Shown here in pieces: positions 26,440 to 60,210 of a DNA stretch of 64,000 bases. Source of the DNA: a bacterium (GTDB lineage Bacteria > 4484-113 > JAFGCY01); assembly GCA_020849855.1 (NCBI GenBank), contig JADZFO010000038.1:108010-172009 (forward strand), written 5' to 3'. Numbering within the stretch: the first letter of the stretch is position 1; every line of letters begins with the position of its first letter. Both the position numbers and the translations under genes were made by a program. The notes under the pieces were generated by a model. That model was not told where the DNA came from, searched no databases, and saw nothing but the letters and a program-made list of their open reading frames with translations.

Positions 26440-26560
26440 AAACCGACTGCCTGCCCTGCCAGGCGGCTCCACGAAGGCTGCCCCGCACTGCCATGCGGGG
26501 CCACGAAAGCTGCCCGCACTGCCAGGCGGGGCCACATGCCAGAGGGTTATACTCAGCGGG
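26440..26560. repeat. about 3 imperfect tandem ~31-bp repeats (GCCAkGCGGsbCCACGAArGCTGCCCsGCACT) in the upstream region of the large lipoprotein gene
   Basis: ctgccctgccaggcggctccacgaaggctgccccgcact / gccatgcggggccacgaaagctgcccgcact / gccaggcggggccacatgcc, read directly. Confidence 0.5.
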
Positions 26561-26585
26561 CCGGTGCATCCGGCCGGGGAGAGCC

Positions 26586-29500
26586 ATGCTGCTGCTGTCT
26601 GGAAAGCCTGCCTGCCGGCAGTTGAGGTTTACTGGAGTACTGCTGATCACCCTGCTTTGCGCCGCCTGCGGCGGGCGCGGAAGCATCCAGCCCGAGGCCA
26701 TGCTGACAGAAGGCGAAGTGCTGAATAGCCGCAGCGCCAGTGTGCGGATTCTTCCCGAGACCTATCTGGCCGGCGGCAGTGCACGGGCCATCACGCTGAG
26801 CGAGCGCGAGGAAGGCGATGCGGTGCTGCTGGAACTGCGGGCGCAGGATGCGCAGCAGCTCAAGGCCCTGTACCTGCACCTGGAGTATGACCCCGCGCAG
26901 CTTTCGCCGGCCGGCGTGGAGAGCGCCTGGGCCTTTGCCGCGGAGCAGGACAGCCTGCAGCTGCTGCTTGCCGGCGAGCCCGGCGTGCTGGAGTATGGCG
27001 AGCAGTGCATCCGGCCGCAGGTAGCGGACCAGAGCGCGGCGCGCGGAGGCCTCAGCGGCGATGGCCTGCTGGCGACGATCCGCCTGGCCCGGCGGCCCTT
27101 CAGCCCTCTGCAGCGCGAAGCGGCGGCGCCGACGATCGCTGACCGCAGCCAGTCGATACTAAGCCTTGATGTGGACAGCTTCACCCTGAGCTGGGGTTAT
27201 GCCAGCAACGGCGACTACAACCAGAACGGCACGGTGGCTGTAACCGACCTGACGCCCATCGGCGCGCATTTTGGCGAGGATGTGCCGGATGAGGACCAGA
27301 GCACCATTCAGTCGGTGATTGATGGCAATGGCGACGGCAAGATCGGGGTGGCTGACCTGACCGCGATCGGACTCAACTTCCAGATCAGCGTGAACAGCTA
27401 CAACATCTACGCCGCCAACAACATTGATGCAGTGCCAACCAGCAATGCCGGGCCGAACGGCGCAGGGGCCGAACTGCGCGGAACAGTTCCCTTTGACCAG
27501 GTCCAGGGCGACCAGTTCTCAGCCCGGCGCAGCTTCAGCTTCGCGCTGCCAGTCAGCCAGATTGGCTGGTTCTACTGGGTGCGGCCGAACGACGCGGAGG
27601 ATGGCACAGGCGCGGACGGCACGCCCAGCAGTGTGGCCAGCTTCGGCGGCAAGCCCGAGAACCTCGACCCCCTGGCTGTGTTGAGCGCGGATCCTACAAG
27701 CGGCGACATCCCTCTGGAGGTGAGCTTTGACGCCAGCGGCTCCAGCGACCCGGACGGTCTAGCCGCAGACATCAGCGACATCGTGCAGTTCCAGTGGGAC
27801 TTTGACGGCAACGGTTTGATTGACGACGTGAGCTCTGAGCCGACCATCAGCCATACCTACCGGCGCGGCGGGCTTAAGCAGGCCAGGGTGCGGGTCTTCG
27901 ACAGCGGCGCTGCTTCCTCCGAGGCCGCGGTCAGTATCCTGGCCGGCGCGGCTGGCAACGAAGTCCCGGTTGCGGTTCTCAACGCATCGCTCAGCAGCGG
28001 CCAGGTACCGCTGACTGTGTTGTTCAGCACTGCAGGATCGGGCAGCGGTGATGCGGTTTCGAATGTGATCCAGACCGAGTTTGACTTTGAGGGCGATGGC
28101 ATCTTCGATGTTGCATCCGGCTTCCTCAGAAGCGAAATCTCACATACCTTCACTGAGATTGGCACTTTCAACACGACGGTGAGAATCACGGACAGTTTCC
28201 AGCTGCAGGCCACTGCCAACATTGAGATTACGGTAACACCGAATGTGGGCAACCAGGCACCTTTGATTGTGATCCAGCCGGACCCGCTGGTGTTTGACCT
28301 CGTGGACCAAGACTTCCAGGTGGTCGAGATCGACGTCAGCGGATGCAGCGACCCGGATGGAACAGTGCAGCGCATCGAGCTCGATGTCAGGTCAGATGGC
28401 TTTCCAGAAGCGTTCTACCAGAATGACGGAATCCGTCCGCCGGACCGGCTCTTCGTGCAGGTGGTCCCAATGCTCTCGACTATCACGATTTCAGTGGTTG
28501 ACGAGCTTGGCACCCAGACTCAGGAAGTACGGGACTTCAGGGTGTCGAAGAATGGCAACTTCCCGCCCCAGCTGGCATTAAGCCAGAACATTGTCGCCGG
28601 GGACAAACCCCTGCAGGTTGATTTCGACGCTTCCGCCAGCACAGACATTGACGGCAGCATCGTCAACTTCCGCTTTGAATTCAATGACAGCAGCCCGGCG
28701 TTGGATGACCCCGACGGGGTGCTGAGCCACATCTTTGAGAGCGGTGGCGACTTCTTTGTAAGCATCACGGCTGTGGATGACGATGGCCTGGAGGCCTCGG
28801 TGAACCGAGCTATCGAAGTGAACGCACCGAATAACCAGCCGCCCCAGGCGGCCTTCAGCTTGAGCGTCAGCAGCGGGGATGCCCCCCTGACCGTAACTAT
28901 TGACCCTTCCGCCAGCAGCGACCCTGACGGGAGCATCAGCGAGCTGGCCTGGGATTTCTCGGGGGACGGCTTTTTTGCGCCGCTTGATGATCCCACAACG
29001 CTTGCCCCCTTCGAGCAGACCTTCGTGCAGGATGGCAGTCGGCAGATCAGCCTCAGAGTCACCGACAACGATGGCGGGCAGGACACCTTTTCACTTCCGC
29101 TCACAGTAAGCGGCGGCATCCAGCTGGGAGTTGCTGTAGAGGACTTCTCTCAGCAGCGCTCGGATGACGACACGCTTTCTGCAGCGGTTATCCCTGCCGG
29201 GAACTCCGGGCTGGACAAGGCCGCGATAGCCTTCGTGCCAAACAGGAACGTAAACGTTTTCCCCTTCAGCGCTTTCTACACGGAGTGCCAGCCGGCTGAT
29301 CCCCTGCAGTGGTCAACGCCCGCGCCGGTCTTTGAAATGATTGACGAGAACGGTGACGGCATCGCGCAGCTCGGCTTCGTGGCCCGCAACATCAAGCTGC
29401 TGGAGGTAGGCGGCAACCCCGCGCTGGCCTTCGACGGCAATGGCAAGCGCACAGATGAGCTGACCGCCCCCAGTGAAGACGGCGTGTTCTTTGTGCGGGC

Positions 29501-30386
29501 AGAAGACAACAGCGGCTCCCTGTGGGGTGACCCGGTCAAGATCCCGCTGCTGGACGGCGACCTGGAAGGTGAGTTCAACAACACCTTTGTCTTTGAGGAC
29601 ATTGCCGCGGCAAAGATCATCAGCGGCCGGCCGGCAATGGCTTACGCCTTTACGAGGGGCGACTTCCAGAGGCGAGCCGTGCGCTATGTGCGGGCGCTGG
29701 ACAGCCTTGGCAGCCAGTGGCCACCGCCAGTGGAAGTGGATTCAGTACCGGATAACTCGATATTCTTCACTGACCTGAACTTGGAGGTTTTTGACGGGGT
29801 ACCAAGCCTGCTTTTCGCCAGGAACACGAACTCAGGCAGCCCGGCAGTCGAGCAGCCCAGCTATTCGCGGGCTGTTGATTCTGAAGGCTCGGCCTGGAGC
29901 CTGCCTGAGTCTGTTGAGGACGGAGACATTAACTCTGTCAGATCGCGCGGTTCACTGCTGCTGCGCAGTTCCGGCGGCCTGCCGGCTGCCTTTTACAACC
30001 GTCCTGACGGCCAGTCGCAGGGCGAACTTGGCAGCAGCGTGAGCGGCGGCTTTAGCGGCCCGCCAACGGTGGTGCCCTTTGATTCCGGAAGCAGGATGCA
30101 GGTAATCGACCTCTTCGAGAGCGGCGGCGACAGCTATGCGCTGCTCTTCGGCTTCCGCAGCTCGGCGCTCAACGATGGCTTTGTGAGCTCGATCTTCCTG
30201 TCCAGGGCGCTGAGCGAAGATCTGAGCAGCTGGGGCAACCCTGTCGTGGTGGCCAATTCCGGCAGCCGGATGTCTGCGCTTTCAGCCGCGGTGCTGAAGC
30301 TTAACGGGGACCTGGTGATCATCTTCGCGGACTCTGACGCCGGTAATGTGAAGGTGGCCGTCCTGCCGGACTTTGTGGGTTTCTAA
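26586..30386 (+). CDS. large surface lipoprotein: cohesin-like N-terminal domain, dockerin-type double Ca-binding repeat, four PKD-like domains, C-terminal beta-propeller-like repeats
   Basis: Start at MLLLSGKPACRQLRFTGVLLITLLCAACGG (lipobox). LKALYLHLEYDPAQL resembles the cohesin FxxxYDPxxL strand. DYNQNGTVAVTDLTPIGAHFGE...DGNGDGKIGVADLTAIGLNF is a dockerin-like tandem of 12-residue EF-hand loops. PKD-like PLEVSFDASGSSDPDG, PLTVLFSTAGSGSGD, PLQVDFDASASTDIDGSI, PLTVTIDPSASSDPDGSI. ORF track 26493..30386. Confidence 0.65.
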   Translation: MLLLSGKPACRQLRFTGVLLITLLCAACGGRGSIQPEAMLTEGEVLNSRSASVRILPETYLAGGSARAITLSEREEGDAVLLELRAQDAQQLKALYLHLEYDPAQLSPAGVESAWAFAAEQDSLQLLLAGEPGVLEYGEQCIRPQVADQSAARGGLSGDGLLATIRLARRPFSPLQREAAAPTIADRSQSILSLDVDSFTLSWGYASNGDYNQNGTVAVTDLTPIGAHFGEDVPDEDQSTIQSVIDGNGDGKIGVADLTAIGLNFQISVNSYNIYAANNIDAVPTSNAGPNGAGAELRGTVPFDQVQGDQFSARRSFSFALPVSQIGWFYWVRPNDAEDGTGADGTPSSVASFGGKPENLDPLAVLSADPTSGDIPLEVSFDASGSSDPDGLAADISDIVQFQWDFDGNGLIDDVSSEPTISHTYRRGGLKQARVRVFDSGAASSEAAVSILAGAAGNEVPVAVLNASLSSGQVPLTVLFSTAGSGSGDAVSNVIQTEFDFEGDGIFDVASGFLRSEISHTFTEIGTFNTTVRITDSFQLQATANIEITVTPNVGNQAPLIVIQPDPLVFDLVDQDFQVVEIDVSGCSDPDGTVQRIELDVRSDGFPEAFYQNDGIRPPDRLFVQVVPMLSTITISVVDELGTQTQEVRDFRVSKNGNFPPQLALSQNIVAGDKPLQVDFDASASTDIDGSIVNFRFEFNDSSPALDDPDGVLSHIFESGGDFFVSITAVDDDGLEASVNRAIEVNAPNNQPPQAAFSLSVSSGDAPLTVTIDPSASSDPDGSISELAWDFSGDGFFAPLDDPTTLAPFEQTFVQDGSRQISLRVTDNDGGQDTFSLPLTVSGGIQLGVAVEDFSQQRSDDDTLSAAVIPAGNSGLDKAAIAFVPNRNVNVFPFSAFYTECQPADPLQWSTPAPVFEMIDENGDGIAQLGFVARNIKLLEVGGNPALAFDGNGKRTDELTAPSEDGVFFVRAEDNSGSLWGDPVKIPLLDGDLEGEFNNTFVFEDIAAAKIISGRPAMAYAFTRGDFQRRAVRYVRALDSLGSQWPPPVEVDSVPDNSIFFTDLNLEVFDGVPSLLFARNTNSGSPAVEQPSYSRAVDSEGSAWSLPESVEDGDINSVRSRGSLLLRSSGGLPAAFYNRPDGQSQGELGSSVSGGFSGPPTVVPFDSGSRMQVIDLFESGGDSYALLFGFRSSALNDGFVSSIFLSRALSEDLSSWGNPVVVANSGSRMSALSAAVLKLNGDLVIIFADSDAGNVKVAVLPDFVGF

Positions 30387-32805: not shown

Positions 32806-35457
32806 TTATTGCGGCCTGAGCAGCACATTGTTCAATTCTTCGTCATAACCCGAGCTGAGGGGCAGGCCCGTGCCATCGATCAGACTCCAGAGCGAAAGCG
32901 GCTGCATGCACTCACTGACCCAGTCGTCACTCTCAGCCGGCTCCTCGACCAGGGCCGCGCAGTGGATGTTAACGCTGTTGTTGTAGTTATTGAGCCAAAT
33001 GCTGTACTGCACAACCAGCTTGCCGCCTACCAATGCTGTGGCATTCAGGCCAACGTCACCGCCAAGTGGCTTTGCAATCGTATAGTCTGCCCAGTCGCTG
33101 CTGTCGTCTGGCTCGGACTGCGCGGATTCCCAGTGAAACAGGTCAGCGTTGCTCTCGGCAATGAAGTGTGGATGACCATTAATGACATGCAGGGTATCGG
33201 TCACCCATTTCTCGCCTTCGACGGCCTGGGCCACCAGATGCTCCAGCCAATCGTCGCCGCTGTCTGGGTTACTCTGGACCGCGCGGATGTAGTGAAGCTC
33301 TTGCCCGCCGCCTGCAATGAAGGCTGGCCGCCCGGAAATGTCAACTATCGTTGTGTAGTCATCAAAGTAGAACGCCGCCGGCAGGCTCAGGGCGGTACTA
33401 AACTGCCAGTCCGATTGATCCTGCGGCTGAGAGCTGAGCGCGGCGGCGTAGCTAAGCGCGCCGGAGCCTGTCTGGTTATGCTTGAACATGAGTGCAGGAG
33501 TGCCGTTGACTACTGATAGCCGCAGTCCGCTGTAACTCTCACCTGGGGGCAGCGACTGAACTTCATGGCTTGTCCAGTCCTGCGGGCTGTCAGGCTGGGC
33601 TGAGCCGGCCAGCAACAGGTTGATGGAGTCCTGGGTCTGCCAGGCGATCGCGGGCCTGCCCTCATGCTCGGCGAGATAAAGCCAAGAACTGCCCAGGGCC
33701 ACATTGCCCGGATCGTGGGCCAGAGTGGTGATCCAGTCGTCCGGGCTGTCCGGCGTGGGCTCGACCGCCTGCACCAGGTAGATGGAATCGAAGGCTTCGC
33801 TCTTGCCCTCCATGGGGCCAACTGCCGCGAAAGCCGGGCGGCCGCCGACGGAGACCAGACGGGTGAAGGACAGATCATCGAGCATGTCAATCATTGTCCA
33901 ACGCGAGCGGTAACCAAGTTTCAGCGCGGTCGGCACGCTTTCATCAAGCCCTGCAGCCGACACTACATAGTAGTTGTGTGGCAGCAGATCCTGGGTTTGC
34001 AGGTCGGTGTAGTCGGCATCGCTGCTGACTCCAAGGAGAGTGTCATCGCTGCTATCACCACTGTCGATGTAGACTTTGTAGGCCACCGCGCCAGCTACAG
34101 GATTCCAGTTGAGCTCCACGCGGTCGGGGAGACCTTGTGAAACCTGCAGGCCGATTGGCGGGCTCAGCTCGCGGCGGCCGGTGTCCACCGGACTCCAGTG
34201 CGGGCTCGTGTCAGCGCCAAGCACGGCCCTGACCCGATACTCATAGCGGGTACGGTGCAGACTTTCCTTGCCCGGTGGAGAATTGAAGAAGTGGCTGAAT
34301 TTAGGCGAGGCATCGACGGTCTCGGCAAGCGGCACCCATAGCACCGGCTCACCACCATCGGCGTTTCGATACTCAATCTGATAGGCCTCGGCCTCTGGCA
34401 CAGCGGTCCAGACCAGGTCAATTCGGTCACCCAGCGTCGCAGGTTGCCATGGGTCGCTGTTGTCGTACTCGTCATAGGTGGCCGCAAGGAAGTCGACATC
34501 CCCGAGTGTTCGCAGACCGGCGACGCCAAATCCTGCCTCGCCGGTCAGCCCAACCCGCTGCAGGCGTAGACGGTAATAGACATTAACACCATAGGGCAGC
34601 AGGTTGGCCGCGCCGACTGCTTCCGAGTGCACATCGCTGTAGCTGTTCACGCCGGGCGGCAGGGTGGCCAGAGGCTCAAAGATGTAGGGCGGCTGCTGGG
34701 AGACGCTGCGCTCCAGTACGACGGCGTCGTACTGCAGGCCAGGATAACTGGCCGCCGGGTCATCCCAGCTCAGCTCAATGCGCCCGGGGTAGTCTCCGTA
34801 GCTCGCTGTCAGCCCCTGCGGGACCGGAAGCGCCGCATCCAGTTCCAGGCTGAGCCGCGAGACGCTGGCCTGCTGGGCGCCGTCGATCAGCACAATGCAG
34901 AACAGCGAGCCGTCAGGGCTGAGGGGCTCAAGCCCGGCAGCCAGGCTGAGCGTGTTTTCCGGCAGAGGCAGCGCCAGCCGGTACCAGCGCCAGCTCTGGC
35001 TGGCATAATCGCTGACAGCCAGCCAGGCCCTTTGCGGAAGTGGCTGGGCCAGCTCCAGCTTCAGGCTGAAGGTGGCGTCCTGCGGGCTGAGACCGCTGAA
35101 CTCGAACAAGGCCCAGCCAGGCTGGCCAGGGCTGGAGCTGAGCAGGGCAGTCTTACTGAAGGGGTTCACCATGGTGCTGGGGGCGGCTACGCTGAACTGC
35201 GATCCCGGCAGCACTATGGACCCCATGGCAAGCGCGGTGTGGGGCAGGCCGGAGCCGCCAGCTGGCAGCGCCGGAAGGCCGGACTGCTGCGGCAGGGCTG
35301 GAAGCTCAAGCCGCGGCGCGGCAGGGTCGACAAGTGGGGCCGCGGAATCAGTCGATGTTGTGACCGGCGCAGTCAAGGCGCCCGCGCCGCAGGATGACAG
35401 CATTAACGCGCAGAAGAGCAAAGCCAGACGCTGTGCGCCGTATCCCCACCTGACCAT
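32806..35457 (-). CDS. large surface lipoprotein (signal/lipobox, unknown conserved N-terminal module, FN3-like middle, beta-propeller-like C-terminal repeats)
   Basis: 883 aa; MVRWGYGAQRLALLFCALMLSSCGAGA lipobox. N-terminal module motif AWLAVSDYASQSWRWYRL is shared with the 43555..44997 and 58303..60210 proteins. Repeated P.DS.DDW / SxxDW blades in the C-terminal half. Gene is bracketed by the direct repeats. Confidence 0.55.
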   Translation of the reverse strand: MVRWGYGAQRLALLFCALMLSSCGAGALTAPVTTSTDSAAPLVDPAAPRLELPALPQQSGLPALPAGGSGLPHTALAMGSIVLPGSQFSVAAPSTMVNPFSKTALLSSSPGQPGWALFEFSGLSPQDATFSLKLELAQPLPQRAWLAVSDYASQSWRWYRLALPLPENTLSLAAGLEPLSPDGSLFCIVLIDGAQQASVSRLSLELDAALPVPQGLTASYGDYPGRIELSWDDPAASYPGLQYDAVVLERSVSQQPPYIFEPLATLPPGVNSYSDVHSEAVGAANLLPYGVNVYYRLRLQRVGLTGEAGFGVAGLRTLGDVDFLAATYDEYDNSDPWQPATLGDRIDLVWTAVPEAEAYQIEYRNADGGEPVLWVPLAETVDASPKFSHFFNSPPGKESLHRTRYEYRVRAVLGADTSPHWSPVDTGRRELSPPIGLQVSQGLPDRVELNWNPVAGAVAYKVYIDSGDSSDDTLLGVSSDADYTDLQTQDLLPHNYYVVSAAGLDESVPTALKLGYRSRWTMIDMLDDLSFTRLVSVGGRPAFAAVGPMEGKSEAFDSIYLVQAVEPTPDSPDDWITTLAHDPGNVALGSSWLYLAEHEGRPAIAWQTQDSINLLLAGSAQPDSPQDWTSHEVQSLPPGESYSGLRLSVVNGTPALMFKHNQTGSGALSYAAALSSQPQDQSDWQFSTALSLPAAFYFDDYTTIVDISGRPAFIAGGGQELHYIRAVQSNPDSGDDWLEHLVAQAVEGEKWVTDTLHVINGHPHFIAESNADLFHWESAQSEPDDSSDWADYTIAKPLGGDVGLNATALVGGKLVVQYSIWLNNYNNSVNIHCAALVEEPAESDDWVSECMQPLSLWSLIDGTGLPLSSGYDEELNNVLLRPQ

Positions 35458-36277: not shown

Positions 36278-38047
36278 CTAATGCGCCTGAACATGCGCAT
36301 GCTCTTCTTCCTGCGCGTGCTCGTCTTCGTGCCCATGCTCTTCTTCATGCCCATGCTCGTCTTCATGCTCGTGCCCATGCCCATGAGCGTGATCATGCTC
36401 GTGCTCTTCCTCGCTGTGGCCCGGCACCTCAAAGCTGGCGTCACCGGCGGGATGGTGGTGGCCGCCGATGCTCCAGTCGATGCCCAGCCAGAGGCTGCCA
36501 ACCCTGCGGCCCAGGTGCTGGGCGTCGTCGTGGTTGTACTGCAGGCGCACCCGCGTCGCCTCGCTGGGGTACCAGGCCAGCAGCGGGCTGATGCGGCTGC
36601 GCTCGTCGCGCAGGGGGTCGTGCTCGCTGCCGCCCACGCTTTCGCCGCTGCTGCCGGCAAACTCATAGCGCAGGCCGGCGGCCCACTGCGGGCGGAAGCC
36701 GTAGAGCAGCTGGCTGTAGGCCGCGCTGTCACGCAGGCTCAGAGCCGGCAGGTCTATCGGGTTTGCCAGGTCGCTGTCATCCTGCAGGGCCGCAGCATCA
36801 TAGCTGCGCAGGGCGTACTCGCTTTCCCAGAGCACAAAGGGCCATTCGCCCGGACAGGGCTGGTAGAGATAGCTCAGGTCCGCGCCATAGATGCTGGTTC
36901 GGCTGCCGGCACCGCTGCCATTGGGCCCCCACATGCCAGACAGGCCCAGGCGCCAGCGCGAGCTCTCCGACTGCCAGGTGTTCTCCCAGCGCAGTGTGGC
37001 GAGCAGGGCGGCTGAATCGTCCAGCTGCGGGCGCAGGCCCGGGCCGAGGCTTTCATAGCGCTCTTCCAGCAGCAGCAGCAGCGGGTCTTCCTCCTCTTCC
37101 TCCCCGCCGTGCTCCTCTTCCTCGCCATGGCTGTGGCCGGCGCCGCGGAAGCTGACCATGCTCTCGTCGGCGGCATTCTGCACACCGATGACCAGGCGGC
37201 TTTGCCAGTCTTCGTCCTCGTCCCAGTCCTCGCCGCTGTTCTTGTTCCAGGCCAGGGCCACACCACCGGCGCGGCCGCCTTCGGAGCCGAAGAAGCGGCT
37301 GACCAGCAGCTGCTGGTCCATCCAGCTCCAGCTGTGCGGGTGGCGCGCATTGTGCAGGCCGAAATCTGTATAGAACTGGCCGGCCTTCAGCTCGAAGCCG
37401 CGCCCGAGCTGGCTGAGCAGGTAGGCCTCCTCCAGCTCGGCGCCTTCCTCCCCAAAGCTGATGTTCAGCTGGCCGCGGGCGCGCGCTGTGACCCAGCCGC
37501 CGAGGCTGAGCTCGGCAATCGGCGTGCTGAAACCCTGGGCGCGCGGGTCATGGTGGCCGGCCTGCAGAGCTTCCAGCTCGGCGTCCTCCGCATCGCTGAA
37601 GCCCAGGTAGGACATCACGTTCAGGCCCAGCTCCAGCGGCAGGTCGTGGAAGTGCTCATGCCATGTGGCCGGCGGCTCGCAGTGCGTGGCCTCTGCCTGC
37701 TGCGGTGCCAGGGCGACCTCGACGCTGTCGCCGGCATGCGCCTCATGCGCCGCATGCCCTTCATGCCCGGCACCTTCAGCATGCTCATGCTCAGCATGTC
37801 CTGCTTGCTCTGCATGCCCGGCATTCTCGGCATGGGCCTGACCCGCTTCATGCTGGTGCCCGGCCTCATGCTCATCCTCAGCCGCAGCCGCGGTGAAGAG
37901 AGCGCTGCCCGGTACCACGCCCAGGGTCAGAACTAGGATCAGGCCCAGGAGCAGGCACAGCAGTCCATAGGCCCTGCTTGCCTTGACAAGGCCCGGAAAA
38001 CTACGCGGCTGGCAGCGCGGGCGAAAGGTGATGCACGGATTGCTCAT
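36278..38047 (-). CDS. His-rich metal-binding protein, probable outer-membrane/porin-like, predicted Zur/Fur-regulated
   Basis: 589 aa; signal peptide; N-terminal (HEAGHQHEAGQAHAENAGHAEQAGHAEHEHAEGAGHEGHAAHEAH) and C-terminal (HSEEEHEHDHAHGHGHEHEDEHGHEEEHGHEDEH) His/Glu-rich blocks. Middle region has alternating-polarity beta-strand-like stretches. Start codon abuts a Fur-box palindrome. Divergent from a Fur-family gene. Confidence 0.5.
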   Translation of the reverse strand: MSNPCITFRPRCQPRSFPGLVKASRAYGLLCLLLGLILVLTLGVVPGSALFTAAAAEDEHEAGHQHEAGQAHAENAGHAEQAGHAEHEHAEGAGHEGHAAHEAHAGDSVEVALAPQQAEATHCEPPATWHEHFHDLPLELGLNVMSYLGFSDAEDAELEALQAGHHDPRAQGFSTPIAELSLGGWVTARARGQLNISFGEEGAELEEAYLLSQLGRGFELKAGQFYTDFGLHNARHPHSWSWMDQQLLVSRFFGSEGGRAGGVALAWNKNSGEDWDEDEDWQSRLVIGVQNAADESMVSFRGAGHSHGEEEEHGGEEEEEDPLLLLLEERYESLGPGLRPQLDDSAALLATLRWENTWQSESSRWRLGLSGMWGPNGSGAGSRTSIYGADLSYLYQPCPGEWPFVLWESEYALRSYDAAALQDDSDLANPIDLPALSLRDSAAYSQLLYGFRPQWAAGLRYEFAGSSGESVGGSEHDPLRDERSRISPLLAWYPSEATRVRLQYNHDDAQHLGRRVGSLWLGIDWSIGGHHHPAGDASFEVPGHSEEEHEHDHAHGHGHEHEDEHGHEEEHGHEDEHAQEEEHAHVQAH

Positions 38048-43554: not shown

Positions 43555-44997
43555 CTAAGGTTGGAAGGCCCCGTCTTCCCACTTCTGGAAGAGGGCCTTC
43601 TGGGAGTCCGTCAGGTTGATGGTCGCGTGGAAGCCGAAGGGCGGCATGGAGCCGCTCTGAGCGCGCGAGTTGCCGTGTTGCTTGAAGGTCAAGTCCGTTC
43701 CACCATATGTGTCCCAGTTAACATCCGGATGTGCGCCGTGCCGCTCAGCCCCGGTATAGGCGCTGTTATGGCAGTTCATGCAGACCGGCTCAAAGACCAG
43801 GGGCTTCATGTGCGTGGCATAGCTCACGGTGTCAGGAATCGTGTAGGCCGTCGCCGTGAAGTCCTGGGTCTGGTCATGGTCTCCGGTGAGGAAGGCTTTG
43901 GGTGGATCAAAGCTGAAGCCGCTCAGCAGGGGCACCACGCGGAAGTCCTCGATCTCATTCAGGATCTCGAAGCTGTAGTTACCCTGCGCGTCGGTCACGG
44001 TATCCAGCTGCTCAAAGGGCACCATCACGGTCACGCCGGCCAGCGGAGTATCGCCGTCCATGATCTTGCCGCTGATGGTGAAGGGCGGGCCGCCGCCCTG
44101 CAGGGTGCCGACAAAGTTCTGGCCGCTGACATCCGCGTTGCTCACCGTCACGTCCCGGTTGGGCGGGGCGAAGGTGAAGCCCGTCAGGCTGGGGGTCAGC
44201 GTGTAGTCCCCGGCTTCGATATCCTCAAAGCTGAAACTGCCGTCAATGCCGGACTGGGCCACATGGCCGCCGGGCTGCAGGCTGAGGTTGACGCCGGGCA
44301 GCGCGACGGAGCCCGCGCTGTTGGTGACGGTGCCGCTGACGGTGAAGCTGGGGGTCTGGCCGTCGTCGACGGTCAATTGGACCTGCTGCACCGAAGCGGT
44401 GGTGGAGTCATAGGCGAGGGCCAGGCCATAAACCCGGCCGCCGGGGGACTTGTAATTCCCGTTGTTGAGGTTCAGGAAGGCCTTGGCGCCGGCCAGTGTG
44501 GGATAAGGCCCCTTGAAGTCCCAGGCCAGGCGCTCATAGTTGGCGATGGCGATCCAGGCGCTGCCCGGGGAGCTGACGTCCATGGTGAAGACAAGGGCCT
44601 GCAGCGTACCGGCGGGCGGGGTGAACTCAAACATGCCGTACTCGAAGCCGCCGGCAGGCGCGACGAGGGACAGGTTGGAGCCGTCGTTGACGGCGCCGGC
44701 CGAACGCGGGCTGGCCTGGCTGCCGGTGAGGGTCAGGGTCTGCAGCACCGTGGCCCCGCGCGCGCTGTCCATCGGGATAGGCGGCAGGCCGCGCAGCATG
44801 GCAGCCAGCGGTGGCTGGGAGCCGGGACGCGCATCCGAGGGGCGTGCGTCCGTCTGGCGTGCGTCGGTCTGGCGCAGGTTCTCAAGGCTGCCGCTTTCCG
44901 GCCTGCCTGCGCAGGCGGAGAGTGCTGCTGCGAGCAGACAGACTGCGACAGTCTGAACAGCCCGGATAAACAAGGGGACACTGGTCTTTATGCTCAT
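43555..44997 (-). CDS. secreted lipoprotein with shared N-terminal module, two carboxypeptidase-regulatory-like (Cna-B/CarbopepD_reg) domains and a C-terminal CxxCH heme-binding domain
   Basis: 480 aa; lipobox LLAAALSACAG. AWIAIANYERLAWDFKGP N-module motif. Two ~80-aa segments with G.V...G.P..G..V.L......T...G.Y.F pattern. C-terminal VCMNCHNSAYTGAERHGAHPD. Confidence 0.55.
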   Translation of the reverse strand: MSIKTSVPLFIRAVQTVAVCLLAAALSACAGRPESGSLENLRQTDARQTDARPSDARPGSQPPLAAMLRGLPPIPMDSARGATVLQTLTLTGSQASPRSAGAVNDGSNLSLVAPAGGFEYGMFEFTPPAGTLQALVFTMDVSSPGSAWIAIANYERLAWDFKGPYPTLAGAKAFLNLNNGNYKSPGGRVYGLALAYDSTTASVQQVQLTVDDGQTPSFTVSGTVTNSAGSVALPGVNLSLQPGGHVAQSGIDGSFSFEDIEAGDYTLTPSLTGFTFAPPNRDVTVSNADVSGQNFVGTLQGGGPPFTISGKIMDGDTPLAGVTVMVPFEQLDTVTDAQGNYSFEILNEIEDFRVVPLLSGFSFDPPKAFLTGDHDQTQDFTATAYTIPDTVSYATHMKPLVFEPVCMNCHNSAYTGAERHGAHPDVNWDTYGGTDLTFKQHGNSRAQSGSMPPFGFHATINLTDSQKALFQKWEDGAFQP

Positions 44998-45217
44998 TCC
45001 TTACCTCCCGTATCAGCCGTGAAGAAAGAAAGCCCGGAGGCTGTCTGTGCGGAAGAACCAGCCCACCCGGGCAGTGAGTCAGACCCGTGTGCGAGCAGCC
45101 GGTTCCCGCATTATTAGGATACCCTTGAATCAGGCCGAGTCAGTTAAGGCTGGGTTTAGTCCGCAGACAAGCATGTGGATCATTCCAGCTTTGACAGGGT
45201 GCTGGCGCTGGCCGCGA

Positions 45218-54061: not shown

Positions 54062-57000
54062 TTAGCCCAGGTCCTCTTCGCTGACGTCGATCTCCGGGTT
54101 GTCGTGGATCCTCGTGCGGCCGTCGTCGGACAGGCGGGCGCGCGGCGGGACGAGCATCTTCAGCAGCTTGGTATCCAGCGCGCCGCGGCGCTTCACCGCC
54201 AGCATGCGGTCGCGGAAGGCCGTCCCATGCTGCGGGTTCAGCTCCAGGGCGTGGCTGCAGTAGAGGATTGCCTCGTCATAGTTGCGCACCGCCAGCAGCT
54301 CGCGGCCCAGCAGGGCATAGAGGTCGGCGTCGCGGCAGCCCTCGGCCACCGCCTTGCGCAGCAGGGGCAACACTTCGCGCTGGCGCTTGAGCTGGCGCAG
54401 GATGTCCACAATCTCGATGTAGCTCGCCGCCAGCTTGGAGTTCAGCTCCAGGGCGCGGTCAAAGCAGCTCTGGCTGTAACTGAACAGGCCCTTACGCTTG
54501 TAGGCCACGCCAAGCTGGTGGTGCAGGATGGCGAAGTTCGGGTTGATCTGCAGGGCCTGGTTGTACTGCTCGATGGCCTCGTCAATGCGGCTGTCGTTCA
54601 GGAAGGTGTCGCCCTGGGCCAGGAAGTTGCGGGCCAGCAGGCCCTTCTTGGAGTGGCTGACGCCCTCCTCAGCGAATACCGCCGTGTTACCGACACCCAG
54701 CAGCACGCAGGAGATGGTGCCCTCGAGGCGGCGGCGGATGGCGTCGCCCTTGATCAGCTCCATGGCCTGGGCCGGCTCGCTGGTACTGGTGATCAGCTCC
54801 TTGATCTCGGAGATCGACAGCGCGCTGGAAAGGTTGCGGCTGAGCAGCAGCAGCTGGTCGCCATCCTTCAGGCGGCGCTTCAGACGGTGCACGCGGGCCA
54901 GCTCGCCAAAGCCCAGACGGTCGTGGATCGTGTTTGACAAGGCTTTCTCACCGTCGCCGATGACGACCTCGTCGTTGATGGTCCACTTGTCGTCCGAATG
55001 GTCCAGCAGGTGTCCCTGGGCCAGGATGGTGAAATCAGCCTCGCCGCAGCTGTGCAGATAAAGCGTGTTCTCCTGCACCATGCCGACGATGGCGGACAGG
55101 CCATAGTGCCCGGTCTTGCCAAGGCCAAAGGCCTCGCGGTAGAGGCGCTGGTTCAGCAGGTCAAGCACCTGGTCCAGGAACTTCTCGGGGTCGGTCTTCT
55201 GCATCTTGGCCAGCTCAGGGCTGACCGCGCCGGCGCTGAAAAGCAGCTCACGCATGCTCTTGAGGGCGCTGGTGGCCGCGCGGCTGGAATCGCCCAGTTC
55301 ATTGCCGTGGCCGACCAGCAGGGCAATCGCGCCGCGGGCACGGTTGTTTACCGCAGGCAGGCGGATGGCCAGGGTTTCCTCACCCTTCTCGCGGGTGTTC
55401 TTGCCCACCATCGACAGCTCGGCGAAATCAAAGCGCAGGTTTGGCACCTGGACCTGCTGCTTCTTGTCGTAGCCCAGCAGGTGGCTGAGTTCCTCGCCCA
55501 GCTCGCCGGCCGCCGCATAGCGCCCGGTGGGGTTCTTCTCCAGCATCCGGATCAGCATGTCCTTGATCTCGGGATGCAGCAGCGAGGCCTCAACACGGGT
55601 GGCCGCGTTCAGGTGCAGGTGTTCGTCGCGGATCTCCTGCTCCACCTTGAAGCAGAAGGGCGGGTGGCCCACCATCATCTCGAAGAGCAGGATGCCCAGC
55701 TGGTAGATATCGCTGCGCTGGTCCTGGCTCTGCTGGCGGATGAACTCCGGGGTGTAATACTCGGCGCCGATGAAGTTCAGGTTGCCATTCTGCAGGAAGG
55801 CATCCGCCACCAGCGGGTCGGCGATCTTGACCGAGCGCAGGTCCGTGGTCAGGAAGATATTGCTCGGGCGCAGGGCGCCGTGATAAGGCAGGTGGTGGAA
55901 GTAGAGGCCCTCAAGGCCCTTGCAGATCTGGAAAACGATGCGGCCGGCATCAGGCATCGGCAGGGTGCCGCGCTTGATCAGCAGCTGCTCGAGGCTCTGC
56001 AGGCCGGACTCCATGGCGATATAGCCGTTCTCGAAGTGGATGCCGACGTCATAGACCTGCAGGACATTCTCGTGATGGATGTTCGGCAAGGCCTTGAAGC
56101 GGGTCTGGAACAGACCCTGCAGCTCGGGATGGCTGCGCAGGTCGACCAGCTTGACCACGCAGCGCTGCTGGCCGTCCTCGGAGCGGGTGTCGATCGCGGA
56201 ATAGATGCGGCTGACGCGGCCCGAGCCGATCTCGGAGACCAGCTTGAAGCGGCCGTTGATCAGGGTATCGAGGATGAAGGTCTGGAAGCGCAGGCCGGAC
56301 TGTTCTTCGCCGCAGAGCTTCTGGACATCATCCAGGGCCTGCTTGAAACCGCCGTAGCGCTGCTCCAGGACCGGAGAAAGCAATTTGTATAGCAGCTCCT
56401 GCACCGGCAGGGGCAGCTTGGTTTCGTCACTGAGCACCTGGCGCAGGCGGTCGGGACGCAGGCGCTCGGCCGGCGGGAAGATGGCGCTGGCCGGGGTGGC
56501 CGTGGCCAGCTCCAGCGCGATCAGGCCGAGGCCGTAAAGGTCGCACTGCTGCGCGGAGAAGAGGCCGCTGGGCGCGCCGTCGAAACCCTCGGGCAATGCG
56601 CCCGCCTCGCCGGCGGCGCCGTTATCCTGGCCCGCCTCAAAGCCGTGGCCGCTCTCCAGGGCCGGCAGTCCGGCCAGCAGCTCGCGTGGCGGCAGATAGG
56701 CCAGCAGGTTGGCGGCTTCAGAAGTCAGCGCCAGATCGTCATGGATCGTGACCGTCGGATAGCCAAAGAAGCCCAGCTTGACCTGGCCCTGTTCCAGGCT
56801 GATGCGGATGTTGTCCGGGTGAACACTCTGGTGCGAAAGCACTTCCTTGCTCTCGGCAAAGAGCAGCGCGCGCAGCACACCGCGCATCAGCACCAGCAGC
56901 TCAGCCGGCGGCAGGGCCTTGAGGTTCTCGAACTGGCTCAGGGGCCGGCCGAAATCGGGATAGACAAGGTAGGGACGCCCTTCCTTGCCGCCGAAGGCCA

Positions 57001-58179: not shown

Positions 58180-58302
58180 TCTAGGCTCTGCCTTCGCTCG
58201 TCAGATCCTGGCCCGGACGCTCCATCAAAAGCTGCATAAAGGTGAAACTATGAACGCTGGCCGCTGCTCTTAGCCCGGTTTGCCCAAGCCATGGAGGTTG
58301 AA

Positions 58303-60210
58303 ATGCAAACGGCAAGAAGCAATTGGAAGCGCGTCCCCGGCACATTGTGTGTGCTGCTGATCCTCTCCGCACTGGGCTGCGGCGGCGGCCATGAGGGCGC
58401 CTTCGGCAACACCCTGGAGAACAGCACCGCCCCGGCAAGCCTGCCGGGCAGCACGCTTAGTCCCGCGCCGCCGGCTTTGGCTGCGCCCGCTGCCCGGGTC
58501 AGTTCCGGCATCTTCGAGCCGGGCGAGCTGTACCAGAGCAGCGCCTCCGGCGCAAGCTGGAGCGGCAGCACTGTGAGCCTTGACGCCGGCGGACTGGACC
58601 TGGCCTACAGCGTGGTGGGCCTCAATGCAGACGCCGGACTGCTGGAGCAGGTCAGCCTGCAGGGCAGCGGCAGCGCGGTCTGGCTGGGCGTCAGCAACTA
58701 TGCCAGCTCTGCCTGGGACTGGGTCGCCGGCCCGCTGGACGCTGAAACTGAAACGACCCTGCATGTACTGGACAGCAGCAGCCCGGACTGCTATTCGCCG
58801 GACGGCAGCATCTATCTGGCGCTGGTGACGACCGCGCAGGCCAGCCTGAGGCTGGAATGCAGCTTCAGCGACGCTCAGCTCAGCGTGGCGCTGAGCGGGC
58901 CGGACATCGGCAATGAGTGCCTGCCCCTGCTGGGCGTCAACGCCGGCCCCTACCCTTCTGGCGAGCCAGGCAACCCGGACCTGATTGAGCAGTACCACGC
59001 CGTCGGGGTGAACTATGTCCGCACCCACGACTTCTATGGCCCGCTGGACCTGGCACAGATGTATCCCGACCGCGATGCGAACCCGACACTGGAGTCCAGC
59101 TTCGACTTCACAGAGAGCGATCTGCGCTGGCAGGCGATCCTGGACAGCGGCGCGCGGCCTTATCTGCGCCTGGGCGACAGCTTTAACAACCCGACACCTC
59201 CGGAGAACCCGATGCAGCGGGCGCGGATGGCTGAGGCCTGCGTGCAGATCATCAAGCACTACATGGAGGGGCAGTGGGGCGGCTTCAACACACCCATCGA
59301 CTACGTTGAGATCTGGAACGAGCCGGACGGCCAGTTCTGGCCCGGCCACAGCCAGGCTGAGTTCTTCCAGTTCTTCGCCGCCGTAGAGAACGCGATCCAC
59401 GCCCAGTGGCCGGTGCTCAAGGTTGGCGGTCCGGGCTTCACCCCGGCCGGCTATCTGACCCCTTCAGGCCAGGCTTATGTCATTGACTTCCTGGACTATA
59501 TGTCGGTCTATGCCACGCGCCTCGACTTCATCTCCTGGCACATGTACTCCAACAACCCGCAGGATTTCGCTGAGGCCGCAGCCTGGTACCGCGTGCAGCT
59601 TGACGACAACGGCTTCGCCGCCGCCGAGAACCACATCACGGAGTGGAACACCTCCATCAGCAATGACGGAACGCAGACGGATGAAGAGATCGAGCTGCGC
59701 AGCGGGCCGACGGGCGCGGCCCTGCTGAGCGCGAGCTGGATCGAGCTGCAGCAGAGCGATGTGGCGGTGTCCTGCTTCTATCGCGGGCCGGACCCGAACA
59801 TTGAAGTCCCCAGCTTCTATGGGATGTGGTACGCCGATGGAACGCCGAAGAAGATCGGCGAGGCCTTTGCCCTCTGGCGCGAGTTCTGCCACAGCGGCAG
59901 CTTCCAGAGCCTTGAGCTGAGCGGAGAGGGCGCGGAGCAGCTCTATGCCCTCGTCGGCCGCGACAGCGAAAGTGACTATCTGCTGCTGCTGGCGAACACC
60001 TCAGACAACGCGGTGACCTACAGCCTGGACTTCCAGGACATCATCAGCGGCGAGCTCAGCCCGGTGCAGGAACTGTACCGCTGCACCCTTCGCGAGGTCA
60101 GCGCCGATGACGACGGCCGCGCGATACATGACCTGCCGCTGAGCACCGTCTCCATCCCGGCACACGCTGTGCAGCTGCTGAAGGTGGACTGGTACGACAG
60201 CGACGACTAA
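58303..60210 (+). CDS. clan GH-A glycoside hydrolase lipoprotein (GH39/GH5-like) with shared N-terminal module
   Basis: Start at ATG 58303 (SD GGAGG 5 nt upstream; MQTARSNWKRVPGTLCVLLILSALGCGGG lipobox). ORF track 58291. N-module motif VWLGVSNYASSAWDWVAGP. Catalytic core with acid/base EIWNEPD (NEP) and nucleophile ITEWN, separated by ~110 aa as in (beta/alpha)8 GH-A enzymes. Confidence 0.65.
   Translation: MQTARSNWKRVPGTLCVLLILSALGCGGGHEGAFGNTLENSTAPASLPGSTLSPAPPALAAPAARVSSGIFEPGELYQSSASGASWSGSTVSLDAGGLDLAYSVVGLNADAGLLEQVSLQGSGSAVWLGVSNYASSAWDWVAGPLDAETETTLHVLDSSSPDCYSPDGSIYLALVTTAQASLRLECSFSDAQLSVALSGPDIGNECLPLLGVNAGPYPSGEPGNPDLIEQYHAVGVNYVRTHDFYGPLDLAQMYPDRDANPTLESSFDFTESDLRWQAILDSGARPYLRLGDSFNNPTPPENPMQRARMAEACVQIIKHYMEGQWGGFNTPIDYVEIWNEPDGQFWPGHSQAEFFQFFAAVENAIHAQWPVLKVGGPGFTPAGYLTPSGQAYVIDFLDYMSVYATRLDFISWHMYSNNPQDFAEAAAWYRVQLDDNGFAAAENHITEWNTSISNDGTQTDEEIELRSGPTGAALLSASWIELQQSDVAVSCFYRGPDPNIEVPSFYGMWYADGTPKKIGEAFALWREFCHSGSFQSLELSGEGAEQLYALVGRDSESDYLLLLANTSDNAVTYSLDFQDIISGELSPVQELYRCTLREVSADDDGRAIHDLPLSTVSIPAHAVQLLKVDWYDSDD

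What the first reader, a model, noticed from the sequence alone, without database searches (positions are those of the whole stretch)
32806..35457. Unknown ~120-aa N-terminal module shared by three otherwise different lipoproteins (32806..35457, 43555..44997, 58303..60210)
Right after their lipoboxes, the 883-aa propeller protein, the 480-aa CarbopepD_reg/cytochrome-c protein and the 639-aa glycoside hydrolase share a module with motif ...S.AW(L/I)(A/G)(V/I)(S/A)(N/D)Y.....W.(W/F)...P. A common N-terminal module on functionally diverse lipoproteins suggests a sorting, anchoring or partner-binding domain (analogous to SusD-binding or PorSS-type signals but N-terminal).
Basis: seen in the sequence. 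Interest (0 to 1): 0.5.

Follow-up and report, generated by a model that had tools for sequence, protein, structure and literature searches.

The report
Uncatalogued CBM-like first domain of lipoproteins
Three unrelated-looking lipoproteins in this window do share a real ~135-residue domain placed just after their lipid anchor; it is an uncatalogued, sugar-binding-module-like beta-sandwich that an uncultured bacterial lineage uses as the fixed first domain of hundreds of lipoproteins, but what it binds is unknown.

Summary
Proteins A (32806-35457, -), B (43555-44997, -) and C (58291-60210, +) each have a lipobox, a short Pro/Ala-rich tether and a homologous ~125-135-aa module (pairwise BLASTP E 2e-5 to 8e-4). 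No other ORF in the window has it.

An exhaustive HMMER scan of 1.84 billion proteins found 422 cluster representatives. All 150 listed carry one copy, which starts near residue 56 in those that look full-length, and 111 of 126 full-length ones have a strict lipobox. A conserved LPxLPxD/R motif sits 9-14 residues before the module in 92 of 133.

Traceable carriers come from one deep uncultured lineage (submitters' label "UBP7"). Downstream domains vary: PKD, CarboxypepD_reg, repeat/propeller-like regions, GH39-like, CxxCH. A complete module-only lipoprotein also exists, and neighbouring genes are housekeeping.

Best reading: an autonomous membrane-proximal binding or pedestal domain, analogous to BACON/DUF1735 of Bacteroidota but with a different fold. 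The ligand is unknown. A sorting-signal role is not supported but is not excluded.

The parts
32806..35457 (-). Protein A, 883 aa: lipoprotein carrying the module, then fn3-like repeats and a C-terminal repeat region
   Evidence: ORF. Identical to NCBI MCC7478767.1 (IT575_09960, 'hypothetical protein [bacterium]'). Pfam finds only fn3 at residues 432-501.
35389..35457 (-). A: signal peptide and lipobox (residues 1-23, MLSS-C23)
   Evidence: Read from the sequence. Fits the family-wide pattern of 111/126 strict lipoboxes.
35263..35304 (-). A: two LPALP motifs (residues 52-56 and 61-65), the conserved N-terminal extension of the module
   Evidence: In the family, the motif lies at a fixed 9 or 12-14 residues before HMM position 1 in 92/133 carriers.
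34822..35229 (-). A: shared module, residues 77-212; predicted CBM-like beta-jelly-roll
32809..33912 (-). A: C-terminal repeat region (residues ~516-883), 5-6 'GxPAxx' repeats; propeller-like but unverified
   Evidence: Repeat positions 538, 600, 651, 709, 760. No Pfam or PDB match. The same repeat type dominates the consensus of 77 carriers.
43555..44997 (-). Protein B, 480 aa: lipoprotein with module, two CarboxypepD_reg domains and a C-terminal CxxCH region
   Evidence: ORF. Identical to NCBI MCC7478777.1 (IT575_10010). Pfam results.
44911..44997 (-). B: signal peptide and lipobox (residues 1-29, ALSA-C29)
   Evidence: Read from the sequence.
44350..44787 (-). B: LPPIP motif (residues 71-75) plus shared module (residues 75-216)
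   Evidence: HMM E = 3e-40. Motif located.
43768..43782 (-). B: single CxxCH (CMNCH, residues 406-410), a putative haem c site
   Evidence: The region is 48% identical to the C-terminus of a second module-bearing gene in L085.
58291..60210 (+). Protein C, 639 aa: lipoprotein with module and a GH39-like catalytic domain
   Evidence: ORF. Glyco_hydro_39 E = 2e-13, residues 235-422. The orthologue P0003 in the sister MAG also hits GH39.
58291..58380 (+). C: signal peptide and lipobox-like site (residues 1-30, ALG-C30)
   Evidence: Read from the sequence. The -3 residue is atypical (A).
58489..58905 (+). C: shared module (residues 67-205); no LPxLP motif upstream
   Evidence: HMM E = 3e-19. Motif absence shown.

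Best explanation
The shared segment is an autonomous, previously uncatalogued protein domain of about 125-135 aa. Its predicted fold is the CBM6/35/36/86-type beta-jelly-roll (galactose-binding-domain-like). One deep, uncultured, high-GC diderm lineage uses it as the obligatory first folded domain of a large paralogous set of lipoproteins.

Architecture (shown): SPII signal and lipobox Cys, then a ~25-aa Pro/Ala/Gly-rich tether, an LPxLPxD/R motif, the jelly-roll, and then variable 'cargo' (PKD, CarboxypepD_reg, repeat/propeller-like regions, GH39-like, CxxCH domain) or nothing.

Proposed mechanism (inferred): the lipid anchor and short tether hold the jelly-roll close to the membrane. There it binds a ligand common to all paralogs, most likely a glycan of the cell's own envelope or surface layer. 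In doing so it acts as a rigid pedestal that positions and orients the variable C-terminal domains. The family grew by tandem duplication and domain shuffling while keeping the signal-tether-module cassette.
For: Homology and extent:
- Pairwise E = 2e-5 to 8e-4.
- 422 cluster representatives at E <= 1e-3 and 55 at E <= 1e-10 among 1.84 billion proteins.

Fixed position:
- All 150 listed hits carry one copy, and the envelope starts at a median residue of 56.
- 111/126 full-length hits have a strict lipobox, and most of the rest have a near-lipobox.
- The LPxLP motif lies at a fixed offset in 92/133 carriers, against 1.8 per 1000 aa downstream. The Cys-to-motif distance has a median of 25 aa.

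Uncatalogued:
- 147 module segments show no consistent Pfam hit at E <= 1.
- No NCBIfam hit and no PDB sequence hit.

Fold:
- AF2 with 147 sequences gives pLDDT 95.7 and pTM 0.89, with 10 strands.
- Foldseek top hits are CBM6, Cry domain III, CBM86 and CBM35, at E ~1e-4 and TM ~0.6.

Autonomy and shuffling:
- The window has three different architectures.
- Of 77 carriers, 27 have PKD and 16 have CarboxypepD_reg, with various propellers and few enzymes.
- L085 has three tandem carriers next to a KdtA orthologue, including a complete 190-aa module-only lipoprotein.
- The sister MAG has a tandem pair, P0041 + P0004, where the window has A alone.

Lineage:
- MetRS relatives at 61-86% identity are eight MAGs labelled UBP7, 'bacterium' or 'Planctomycetales'; everything else is <= 41%.
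- Traceable carriers map to four of those genomes.
- There are 0 hits in 1.27 Mb from 72 loci of other phyla.

Precedent: DUF1735 and BACON in Bacteroidota are phylum-restricted N-terminal beta-sandwich domains of SPII lipoproteins with varied C-termini (PMC11216935).
Against: No ligand or partner is identified, so the function is inference from fold, position and analogy.

The most conserved residues (W69/A71/A73 paired across a hairpin with W80/F82/G84; W39/Y42/F44) follow the aromatic-against-small pattern expected of core packing. This comes plus the secondary structure and is my inference. Conservation alone therefore does not prove a binding site, and I could not inspect model coordinates.

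Most cargo domains are not CAZymes, unlike those attached to classical CBMs.

Whether the proteins face the periplasm or the cell surface is unknown.

Lineage restriction rests on a few traceable carriers and a small negative control.
Confidence: 0.45

Rival explanations
1. Passive spacer or pedestal only. The domain has no ligand. Like the role proposed for BACON and DUF1735, it simply distances the C-terminal domains from the membrane and gives them mobility.
For: It has the same architecture as BACON and DUF1735: an SPII signal, then an N-terminal beta-sandwich, then variable C-termini, restricted to one lineage (PMC11216935). Its position after a short tether is fixed. The conserved residues look like core residues.
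Against: A complete module-only lipoprotein exists (L085), and 9/150 hits have <= 30 residues after the module (the other eight were not checked for truncation). A spacer without cargo has no obvious use. The fold is that of binding modules rather than Ig-like linkers. Strict retention of D/N74, Y75 and W80 across paralogs of ~25% identity is stronger than expected for a mere linker.
Confidence: 0.2
2. Classical substrate-targeting carbohydrate-binding module. The domain binds an environmental polysaccharide and concentrates the attached enzymes or binding proteins on that substrate.
For: The top structural neighbours are CBM86, CBM6, CBM35 and CBM36. Protein C and its orthologue are GH39-like enzymes. 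Some carriers have Sde0182_C, BNR_2 or carrageenase-type propellers.
Against: CBMs occur at N-terminal, C-terminal or internal positions and often in tandem, whereas this domain is always single and always first after the lipobox. Most cargo domains are PKD, CarboxypepD_reg, repeat regions or a CxxCH domain, not CAZymes. There is no sequence relationship to any CBM family in Pfam or PDB. No PUL-like or CAZyme clusters lie around carriers.
Confidence: 0.15
3. Sorting or export determinant. The LPxLP motif plus the jelly-roll is recognised by a lineage-specific machinery that flips or secretes these lipoproteins to the cell surface, or that docks them onto a scaffold.
For: The position is strictly N-terminal and immediately follows the lipid anchor. 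A short linear motif is conserved at a fixed offset. The element is shared by dozens of otherwise unrelated secreted proteins, as with the T9SS CTD or the Bacteroidota LES. The +2 residue is almost never Asp (1 of 111).
Against: Known lipoprotein sorting signals are short peptides, not 130-aa folded domains. The module exists alone without cargo. Protein C lacks the LPxLP motif. No candidate transporter is conserved next to carriers. Nothing here tests localisation.
Confidence: 0.15
4. Chance or compositional similarity in Ala/Pro/Gly-rich N-terminal regions of high-GC proteins.
For: The window is 65% GC, and the tethers are rich in A, P, L, G and S.
Against: Composition-corrected BLASTP is significant for all three pairs. 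The family has 422 members. Specific aromatic, Gly and Pro columns are conserved, including a 100% conserved Trp. The AF2 model is highly confident.
Confidence: 0.01

Closest known systems
BACON domain (PF13004) and DUF1735 (PF08522) of Bacteroidota
   Same: Each is a phylum- or lineage-restricted beta-sandwich domain placed at the N-terminus of multimodular proteins. These proteins mostly carry a lipoprotein (SPII) signal (96% of DUF1735 and 76% of BACON proteins) and have many different C-terminal domains. Multiple copies occur per genome. BACON and DUF1735 are thought to hold cargo near the outer membrane (PMC11216935). The module here shows the same logic.
   Different: There is no sequence relationship: no BACON or DUF1735 hit at E <= 1 in 147 segments. 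The fold is a ~130-aa CBM6/35-like jelly-roll, not an ~80-90-aa Ig-like sandwich. Carriers are not in PULs and have no SusC/D neighbours. Cargo is mostly non-CAZyme. The host is a different, uncultured lineage. A conserved LPxLPxD/R motif precedes the domain.
CBM6 / CBM35 / CBM36 / CBM86 carbohydrate-binding modules (galactose-binding-domain-like jelly-roll)
   Different: Sequence identity is about 10%, and no profile-level match to any CBM was found in Pfam or PDB. The position behind a lipobox is fixed rather than free. The module is mostly attached to non-enzymatic domains. Carbohydrate binding has not been shown.
Cry toxin domain III and podophage tail nozzle jelly-roll domains
   Different: The context is unrelated (toxins, virions). 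There is no sequence similarity and no lipoprotein anchoring. They share the fold class only.

Membership tests
BACON (PF13004 / PF19190) and DUF1735 (PF08522) | Significant match to the family profile | tested here: not met
   hmmscan of 147 module segments at E <= 1 gave no BACON or DUF1735 hit. The full-length proteins gave none either.
BACON (PF13004 / PF19190) and DUF1735 (PF08522) | [quoted passage not shown] | tested here: not met
   The AF2 model is a 10-strand jelly-roll of ~130 aa whose neighbours are CBM6/35/86, not Ig-like domains.
BACON (PF13004 / PF19190) and DUF1735 (PF08522) | N-terminal position behind a lipoprotein signal, with variable C-termini and lineage restriction (functional analogy) | tested here: met
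   The comparison data are in PMC11216935.
CAZy carbohydrate-binding modules (CBM6/35/36/86 type) | Beta-jelly-roll fold | tested here: met
CAZy carbohydrate-binding modules (CBM6/35/36/86 type) | Sequence membership in a defined CBM family | tested here: not met
   No CBM family in the Pfam scan of 147 segments. The profile against PDB sequences found nothing below E = 0.3.
CAZy carbohydrate-binding modules (CBM6/35/36/86 type) | Appended to a carbohydrate-active enzyme | tested here: inconclusive
   True for C (GH39-like) and a few carriers. Most of the 77 scanned carry PKD, CarboxypepD_reg or repeat domains.
CAZy carbohydrate-binding modules (CBM6/35/36/86 type) | Demonstrated carbohydrate binding; ligand-site residues (paired aromatics plus Asn/Asp, often Ca2+) | not testable with these tools
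   Conserved W, Y and D/N columns exist, but model coordinates could not be inspected and no binding assay is possible.
Bacterial lipoproteins (SPII substrates) | Signal peptide ending in a lipobox [LVI][ASTVI][GAS]C | tested here: met
   A has LSS-C23 and B has LSA-C29. C has ALG-C30, which is atypical at -3. 111/126 full-length relatives pass a strict pattern. Lipidation itself is not testable here.
Lipoprotein or secretion sorting signals (Bacteroidota LES, T9SS CTD, Slam substrates) | Short export motif directly after Cys+1 (LES), a C-terminal sorting domain (T9SS), or a dedicated translocon encoded nearby (Slam) | tested here: not met
   The conserved motif lies ~25 aa after the Cys and belongs to a folded domain. 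No Por_Secre_tail appears among the top 25 families in carriers. No translocon-like neighbour was seen in seven loci.

The most novel reading that the evidence does not exclude
The LPxLP motif plus the jelly-roll is the common docking element of a lineage-specific cell-surface display system. Every carrier, tens per genome, is lipid-anchored and also plugs non-covalently into one shared envelope receptor, such as an LPS or S-layer glycan or an outer-membrane protein. Alternatively, the aromatic-lined domain of one molecule binds the polyproline-like LPxLP of another, assembling a lipoprotein lattice. This would be an N-terminal counterpart of SLH, cohesin-dockerin or T9SS-CTD/A-LPS anchoring in a phylum with no cultured member.
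Probability: 0.15. Interest if true: 0.65.

Novelty: new variant of a known kind. Interest (0 to 1): 0.4.

Why it matters
The finding defines a new domain family of at least 422 clusters at 50% identity that is absent from Pfam, NCBIfam and the PDB. It gives the family clear boundaries, a high-confidence predicted fold and a diagnostic motif. This would let dozens of 'hypothetical proteins' per genome be annotated in a deep, uncultured bacterial lineage.

It also shows that the design 'lipobox, then a lineage-specific beta-sandwich, then interchangeable cargo', known from Bacteroidota (BACON, DUF1735), arose independently with a different fold. That supports the idea that a membrane-proximal adaptor domain is a general solution for building a lipoprotein-based cell surface.

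If the domain binds a defined envelope component, it would be a handle for predicting the surface proteome of this lineage, and a candidate affinity tag for studying it in enrichment cultures.

Tried and rejected
1. The search for homologous proteins with the 3-sequence and the 147-sequence module alignments returned nothing, even though A and B are themselves in that collection. The word index seems blind to this family, so I relied on the exhaustive HMMER search.

I used the single genome scan on the neighbouring MetRS instead, which gave taxonomy and synteny.

3. The first AF2 run with only three sequences was mediocre (pLDDT 64), and I did not use it for fold search.

4. The AFDB50 fold library was unavailable.

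5. I looked for a fourth copy in the window, including the N-terminus of the neighbouring 1297-aa PKD lipoprotein, and found none.

6. I looked for a conserved partner or transporter gene next to carriers in the window, the sister MAG and contigs L001, L084 and L085. I found only housekeeping genes: CdsA, UppS, KdtA, an ECF sigma factor, LplA, FUR and ABC transporters.

7. I considered assigning the lineage to GTDB phylum UBP7 (Ca. Bimafiota). That group is described as having 0.83-1.39 Mb genomes at 36-53% GC (PMC11382960). This does not fit the 61-69% GC loci and the 1.88-Mb contig seen here, so I treat 'UBP7' only as a submitter label.

8. I tried to decide from strand periodicity whether the conserved aromatics are surface-exposed or buried. 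The hairpin register suggests a buried core, but without coordinates this stays unresolved.

9. A's C-terminal repeat region against PDB sequences gave no hit.
Full report
**1. Checking the observation**

The three ORFs exist.
- A is 883 aa at 32806-35457 (-).
- B is 480 aa at 43555-44997 (-).
- C is 639 aa at 58291-60210 (+).

Each begins with a hydrophobic signal peptide ending in a lipobox-type Cys: A at C23, B at C29, C at C30.

B has two CarboxypepD_reg domains (E = 3e-14 to 9e-18). C has a GH39-like domain (E = 2e-13). A has one fn3 hit. B has one CxxCH at residues 406-410. A's 'propeller' is so far only 5-6 'GxPAxx' repeats with 52-60-aa spacing; it has no Pfam or PDB match.

After the lipobox and a Pro/Ala-rich stretch, the three proteins align over about 135 residues. 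BLASTP with composition correction gives E = 2e-5, 7e-5 and 8e-4 for the three pairs. An HMM of the segments finds only these three ORFs in the six-frame translation of the window.

**2. How big the family is**

The word-indexed protein search found nothing. An exhaustive HMMER search of 1.84 billion cluster representatives with the three-sequence profile found 422 proteins at E <= 1e-3 and 55 at E <= 1e-10.

In the 150 listed hits:
- The match is always single and N-terminal, with the envelope starting at a median residue of 56.
- A median of 397 residues of variable sequence follows the module.
- 111 of 126 apparently full-length proteins have a strict lipobox. Most of the other 15 have a near-lipobox.
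- The residue after the Cys is A, G, S or T in 99 of 111, and Asp only once.
- A short motif, [LFM]P-x-[LIVF]-P followed by D/G-R, lies 9 or 12-14 residues before HMM position 1 in 92 of 133 proteins. The same pattern occurs only 1.8 times per 1000 residues downstream.
- The lipobox Cys lies a median of 25 residues before the motif.

The unit is therefore: lipobox, ~25-aa tether (15% A, 14% P, 12% G, 12% L), LPxLPxD/R, module. A has two LPALP copies, B has LPPIP, and C has none.

**3. What the module is**

None of 147 module segments gives a consistent Pfam hit, even at E <= 1. NCBIfam finds nothing in the N-terminal regions. Profiles against all PDB sequences find nothing below E = 0.3.

With only three sequences, AlphaFold2 gave a mediocre model (pLDDT 64). 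With the 147-sequence alignment A3 it gave pLDDT 95.7 and pTM 0.89, an all-beta domain of ten strands.

The fold is thus the galactose-binding-domain-like / CBM jelly-roll. At the sequence level it is a family of its own.

Conserved columns, numbered from A residue 77 = 1, are: G9, S16, G23, L28, L30, W39, [AG]40, Y42, F44, W69, [AG]71, [AS]73, [DN]74, [YF]75, W80 (100%), G84, P88, S104, P105, G107, Y110, V113 and V123.

From the predicted hairpin register (strands 67-74 and 79-86, four-residue turn), W69/A71/A73 would face the same side as G84/F82/W80. That is aromatic-against-small packing typical of a core. This is my inference, and I could not inspect coordinates. Conservation by itself therefore does not prove a ligand site.

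**4. Who carries it**

A and B are NCBI proteins MCC7478767.1 and MCC7478777.1 (locus tags IT575_09960 and IT575_10010). They come from a MAG named only 'bacterium', on a 223,974-bp contig. The window encodes KdtA, CdsA, UppS and MetRS, so it is an ordinary chromosomal region of an LPS-making diderm.

A scan of one genome per GTDB species with the window's MetRS gave the following:

| Identity | Relatives |
|---|---|
| 86% | one MAG (GCA_964512635.1) |
| 61-64% | seven MAGs, labelled 'UBP7 HKST-UBA01/03', 'AC1.30', 'Planctomycetales' or 'Myxococcales' |
| <= 41% | everything else |

The lineage is deep and uncultured. The label UBP7 is doubtful, because GTDB's UBP7 is described as having 0.8-1.4 Mb genomes at 36-53% GC (PMC11382960), whereas these loci are 61-69% GC and one contig is 1.88 Mb.

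Every carrier that could be traced to a named assembly maps to this group:
- P0002, P0003, P0004, P0005 and P0041 map to the sister MAG.
- P0089 maps to HKST-UBA03.
- P0153 maps to AC1.30.

Contig L085 is syntenic with the window's B locus; its KdtA is 52-56% identical. The module HMM found nothing in 1.27 Mb from 72 loci of other phyla. That is a small but clean negative control.

**5. Context and evolution**

The sister MAG contig is collinear with the window. Its gene order is: C-like, LplA, Ser/Thr kinase, AMP-binding enzyme, B-like, KdtA, ECF sigma factor, FUR, P0041, A-like, CdsA, UppS. A, B and C are therefore old paralogs, each with its own orthologue. Orthologue modules are 47-57% identical, against 23-30% between paralogs.

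The sister has a tandem pair (P0041 + A-like) where the window has A followed by a TPR protein and a His-rich porin-like protein. It has four strong and two weak carriers in about 60 kb, against three in the 64-kb window.

In L085 the B locus holds three tandem carriers:
- module + CarboxypepD_reg repeats + a CxxCH region;
- module + a B-like CxxCH region (48% identity);
- a complete 190-aa lipoprotein consisting of the module alone.

Among 77 carriers, Pfam finds PKD in 27, CarboxypepD_reg in 16, various propellers, and only a few enzymes. The alignment consensus shows that the A-type 'GxPAxxY...W' repeat region is the commonest cargo.

No transporter, SusC/D-like gene or other gene is conserved next to carriers.

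**6. Mechanism**

Shown: this is a discrete, autonomously folding, lineage-specific domain. It always occurs once and always as the first domain after a lipobox and a short tether. It is combined with many cargos or with none. The family has spread by duplication and shuffling.

Inferred: the domain sits near the membrane and supplies a function common to all paralogs. Three facts point to binding of a common ligand, most plausibly an envelope glycan, with a pedestal effect for the cargo:
- its fold is that of carbohydrate- and receptor-binding modules;
- it exists on its own, where a mere spacer or export tag would be pointless;
- D/N74, Y75, W80 and other residues are retained across paralogs of ~25% identity.

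I put this at about 0.45. Rivals are a passive spacer as proposed for BACON and DUF1735 (0.2), a classical substrate-targeting CBM (0.15) and a sorting or docking determinant (0.15). Chance similarity is excluded.

**7. Comparison with what is known**

In architecture the closest precedents are BACON and DUF1735 of Bacteroidota (PMC11216935). Those are phylum-restricted, N-terminal, sit behind SPII signals and have variable C-termini. The module fails membership on both profile match and fold, and it is not PUL-associated.

In structure it resembles CBM6/35/36/86. It fails sequence membership there too, and it differs in its fixed position and mostly non-CAZyme partners.

It is best described as a new domain family of a known fold, used in a known way (a membrane-proximal adaptor of lipoproteins) in a new lineage.

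**8. Verdict**

This is a solid domain discovery of moderate interest (0.4). The ligand or partner, the cellular face and the role of the LPxLP motif remain open.

Noticed in passing
window 26493-30386 (+): This is a 1297-aa lipoprotein (..LLCAAC) with three or more PKD domains (PKD_4 E = 6e-35). It lacks the module. Its N-terminal region contains a duplicated 'DxNxNG/DGNGDGKIGVADL' segment with a sub-threshold Dockerin_1 hit (E = 0.003). Its C-terminal ~350 aa carry the same 'GGxPAxAF/Y' repeats as protein A (BLASTP E = 0.001). The repeat or propeller cargo is therefore combined with at least two different N-terminal modules in this genome.
   Followed up: partly
window 36278-38047 (-): This 589-aa protein has extremely His/Glu-rich N- and C-terminal tails (HEHxH, HGHEEEH repeats) flanking a region with weak porin-like hits (Porin_O_P E = 0.014). 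It may be a metal-binding outer-membrane barrel. In the sister MAG this position is occupied by a second module-bearing lipoprotein (P0041) next to a FUR gene.
   Followed up: partly
L085 10001-13637 (JGI 3300063263 contig Ga0604673_0000874): Three tandem module-bearing lipoprotein genes (606, 362 and 190 aa) lie beside a KdtA orthologue. Together they split the domains that are fused in the window's protein B, and they include a module-only gene. An 881-aa Kelch/PKD protein and a 1003-aa PKD protein lie upstream.
   Followed up: yes
window 43768-43782 (-) and L085 genes 1 and 2: B's C-terminal ~90 aa, with a single CxxCH (CMNCH), is conserved at 48% identity in another genome. A related CTECH region ends the 606-aa L085 protein. 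No cytochrome family in Pfam matches (only Tll0287-like at E = 0.06). This may be an uncatalogued mono-haem domain on lipoproteins.
   Followed up: partly
L004-L011, lineage of the window: Submitters' names for the eight closest MAGs disagree (UBP7, Planctomycetales, Myxococcales, 'bacterium'). The published description of GTDB UBP7 (0.8-1.4 Mb, 36-53% GC) does not fit these loci at 61-69% GC or the 1.88-Mb contig of AC1.30. The taxonomy of this lineage needs checking.
   Followed up: partly
window 54062-57352 (-): This 1096-aa protein has a Ser/Thr kinase domain (Pkinase E = 5e-35) and C-terminal TPR repeats. It is conserved in position in the sister MAG, between the B and C loci.
   Followed up: no
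window 43561-45117 (+), 34627-35397 (+), 58270-59400 (-): Long ORFs of 256-518 aa lie antisense to proteins A, B and C. They are Arg/Ala/Gly-rich mirror ORFs typical of 65%-GC DNA and should not be taken for genes.
   Followed up: no
tool behaviour: The word-indexed protein search returned no hit for module alignments whose sequences include proteins present in that same collection. Negative results from that tool are not informative for this family.
   Followed up: yes
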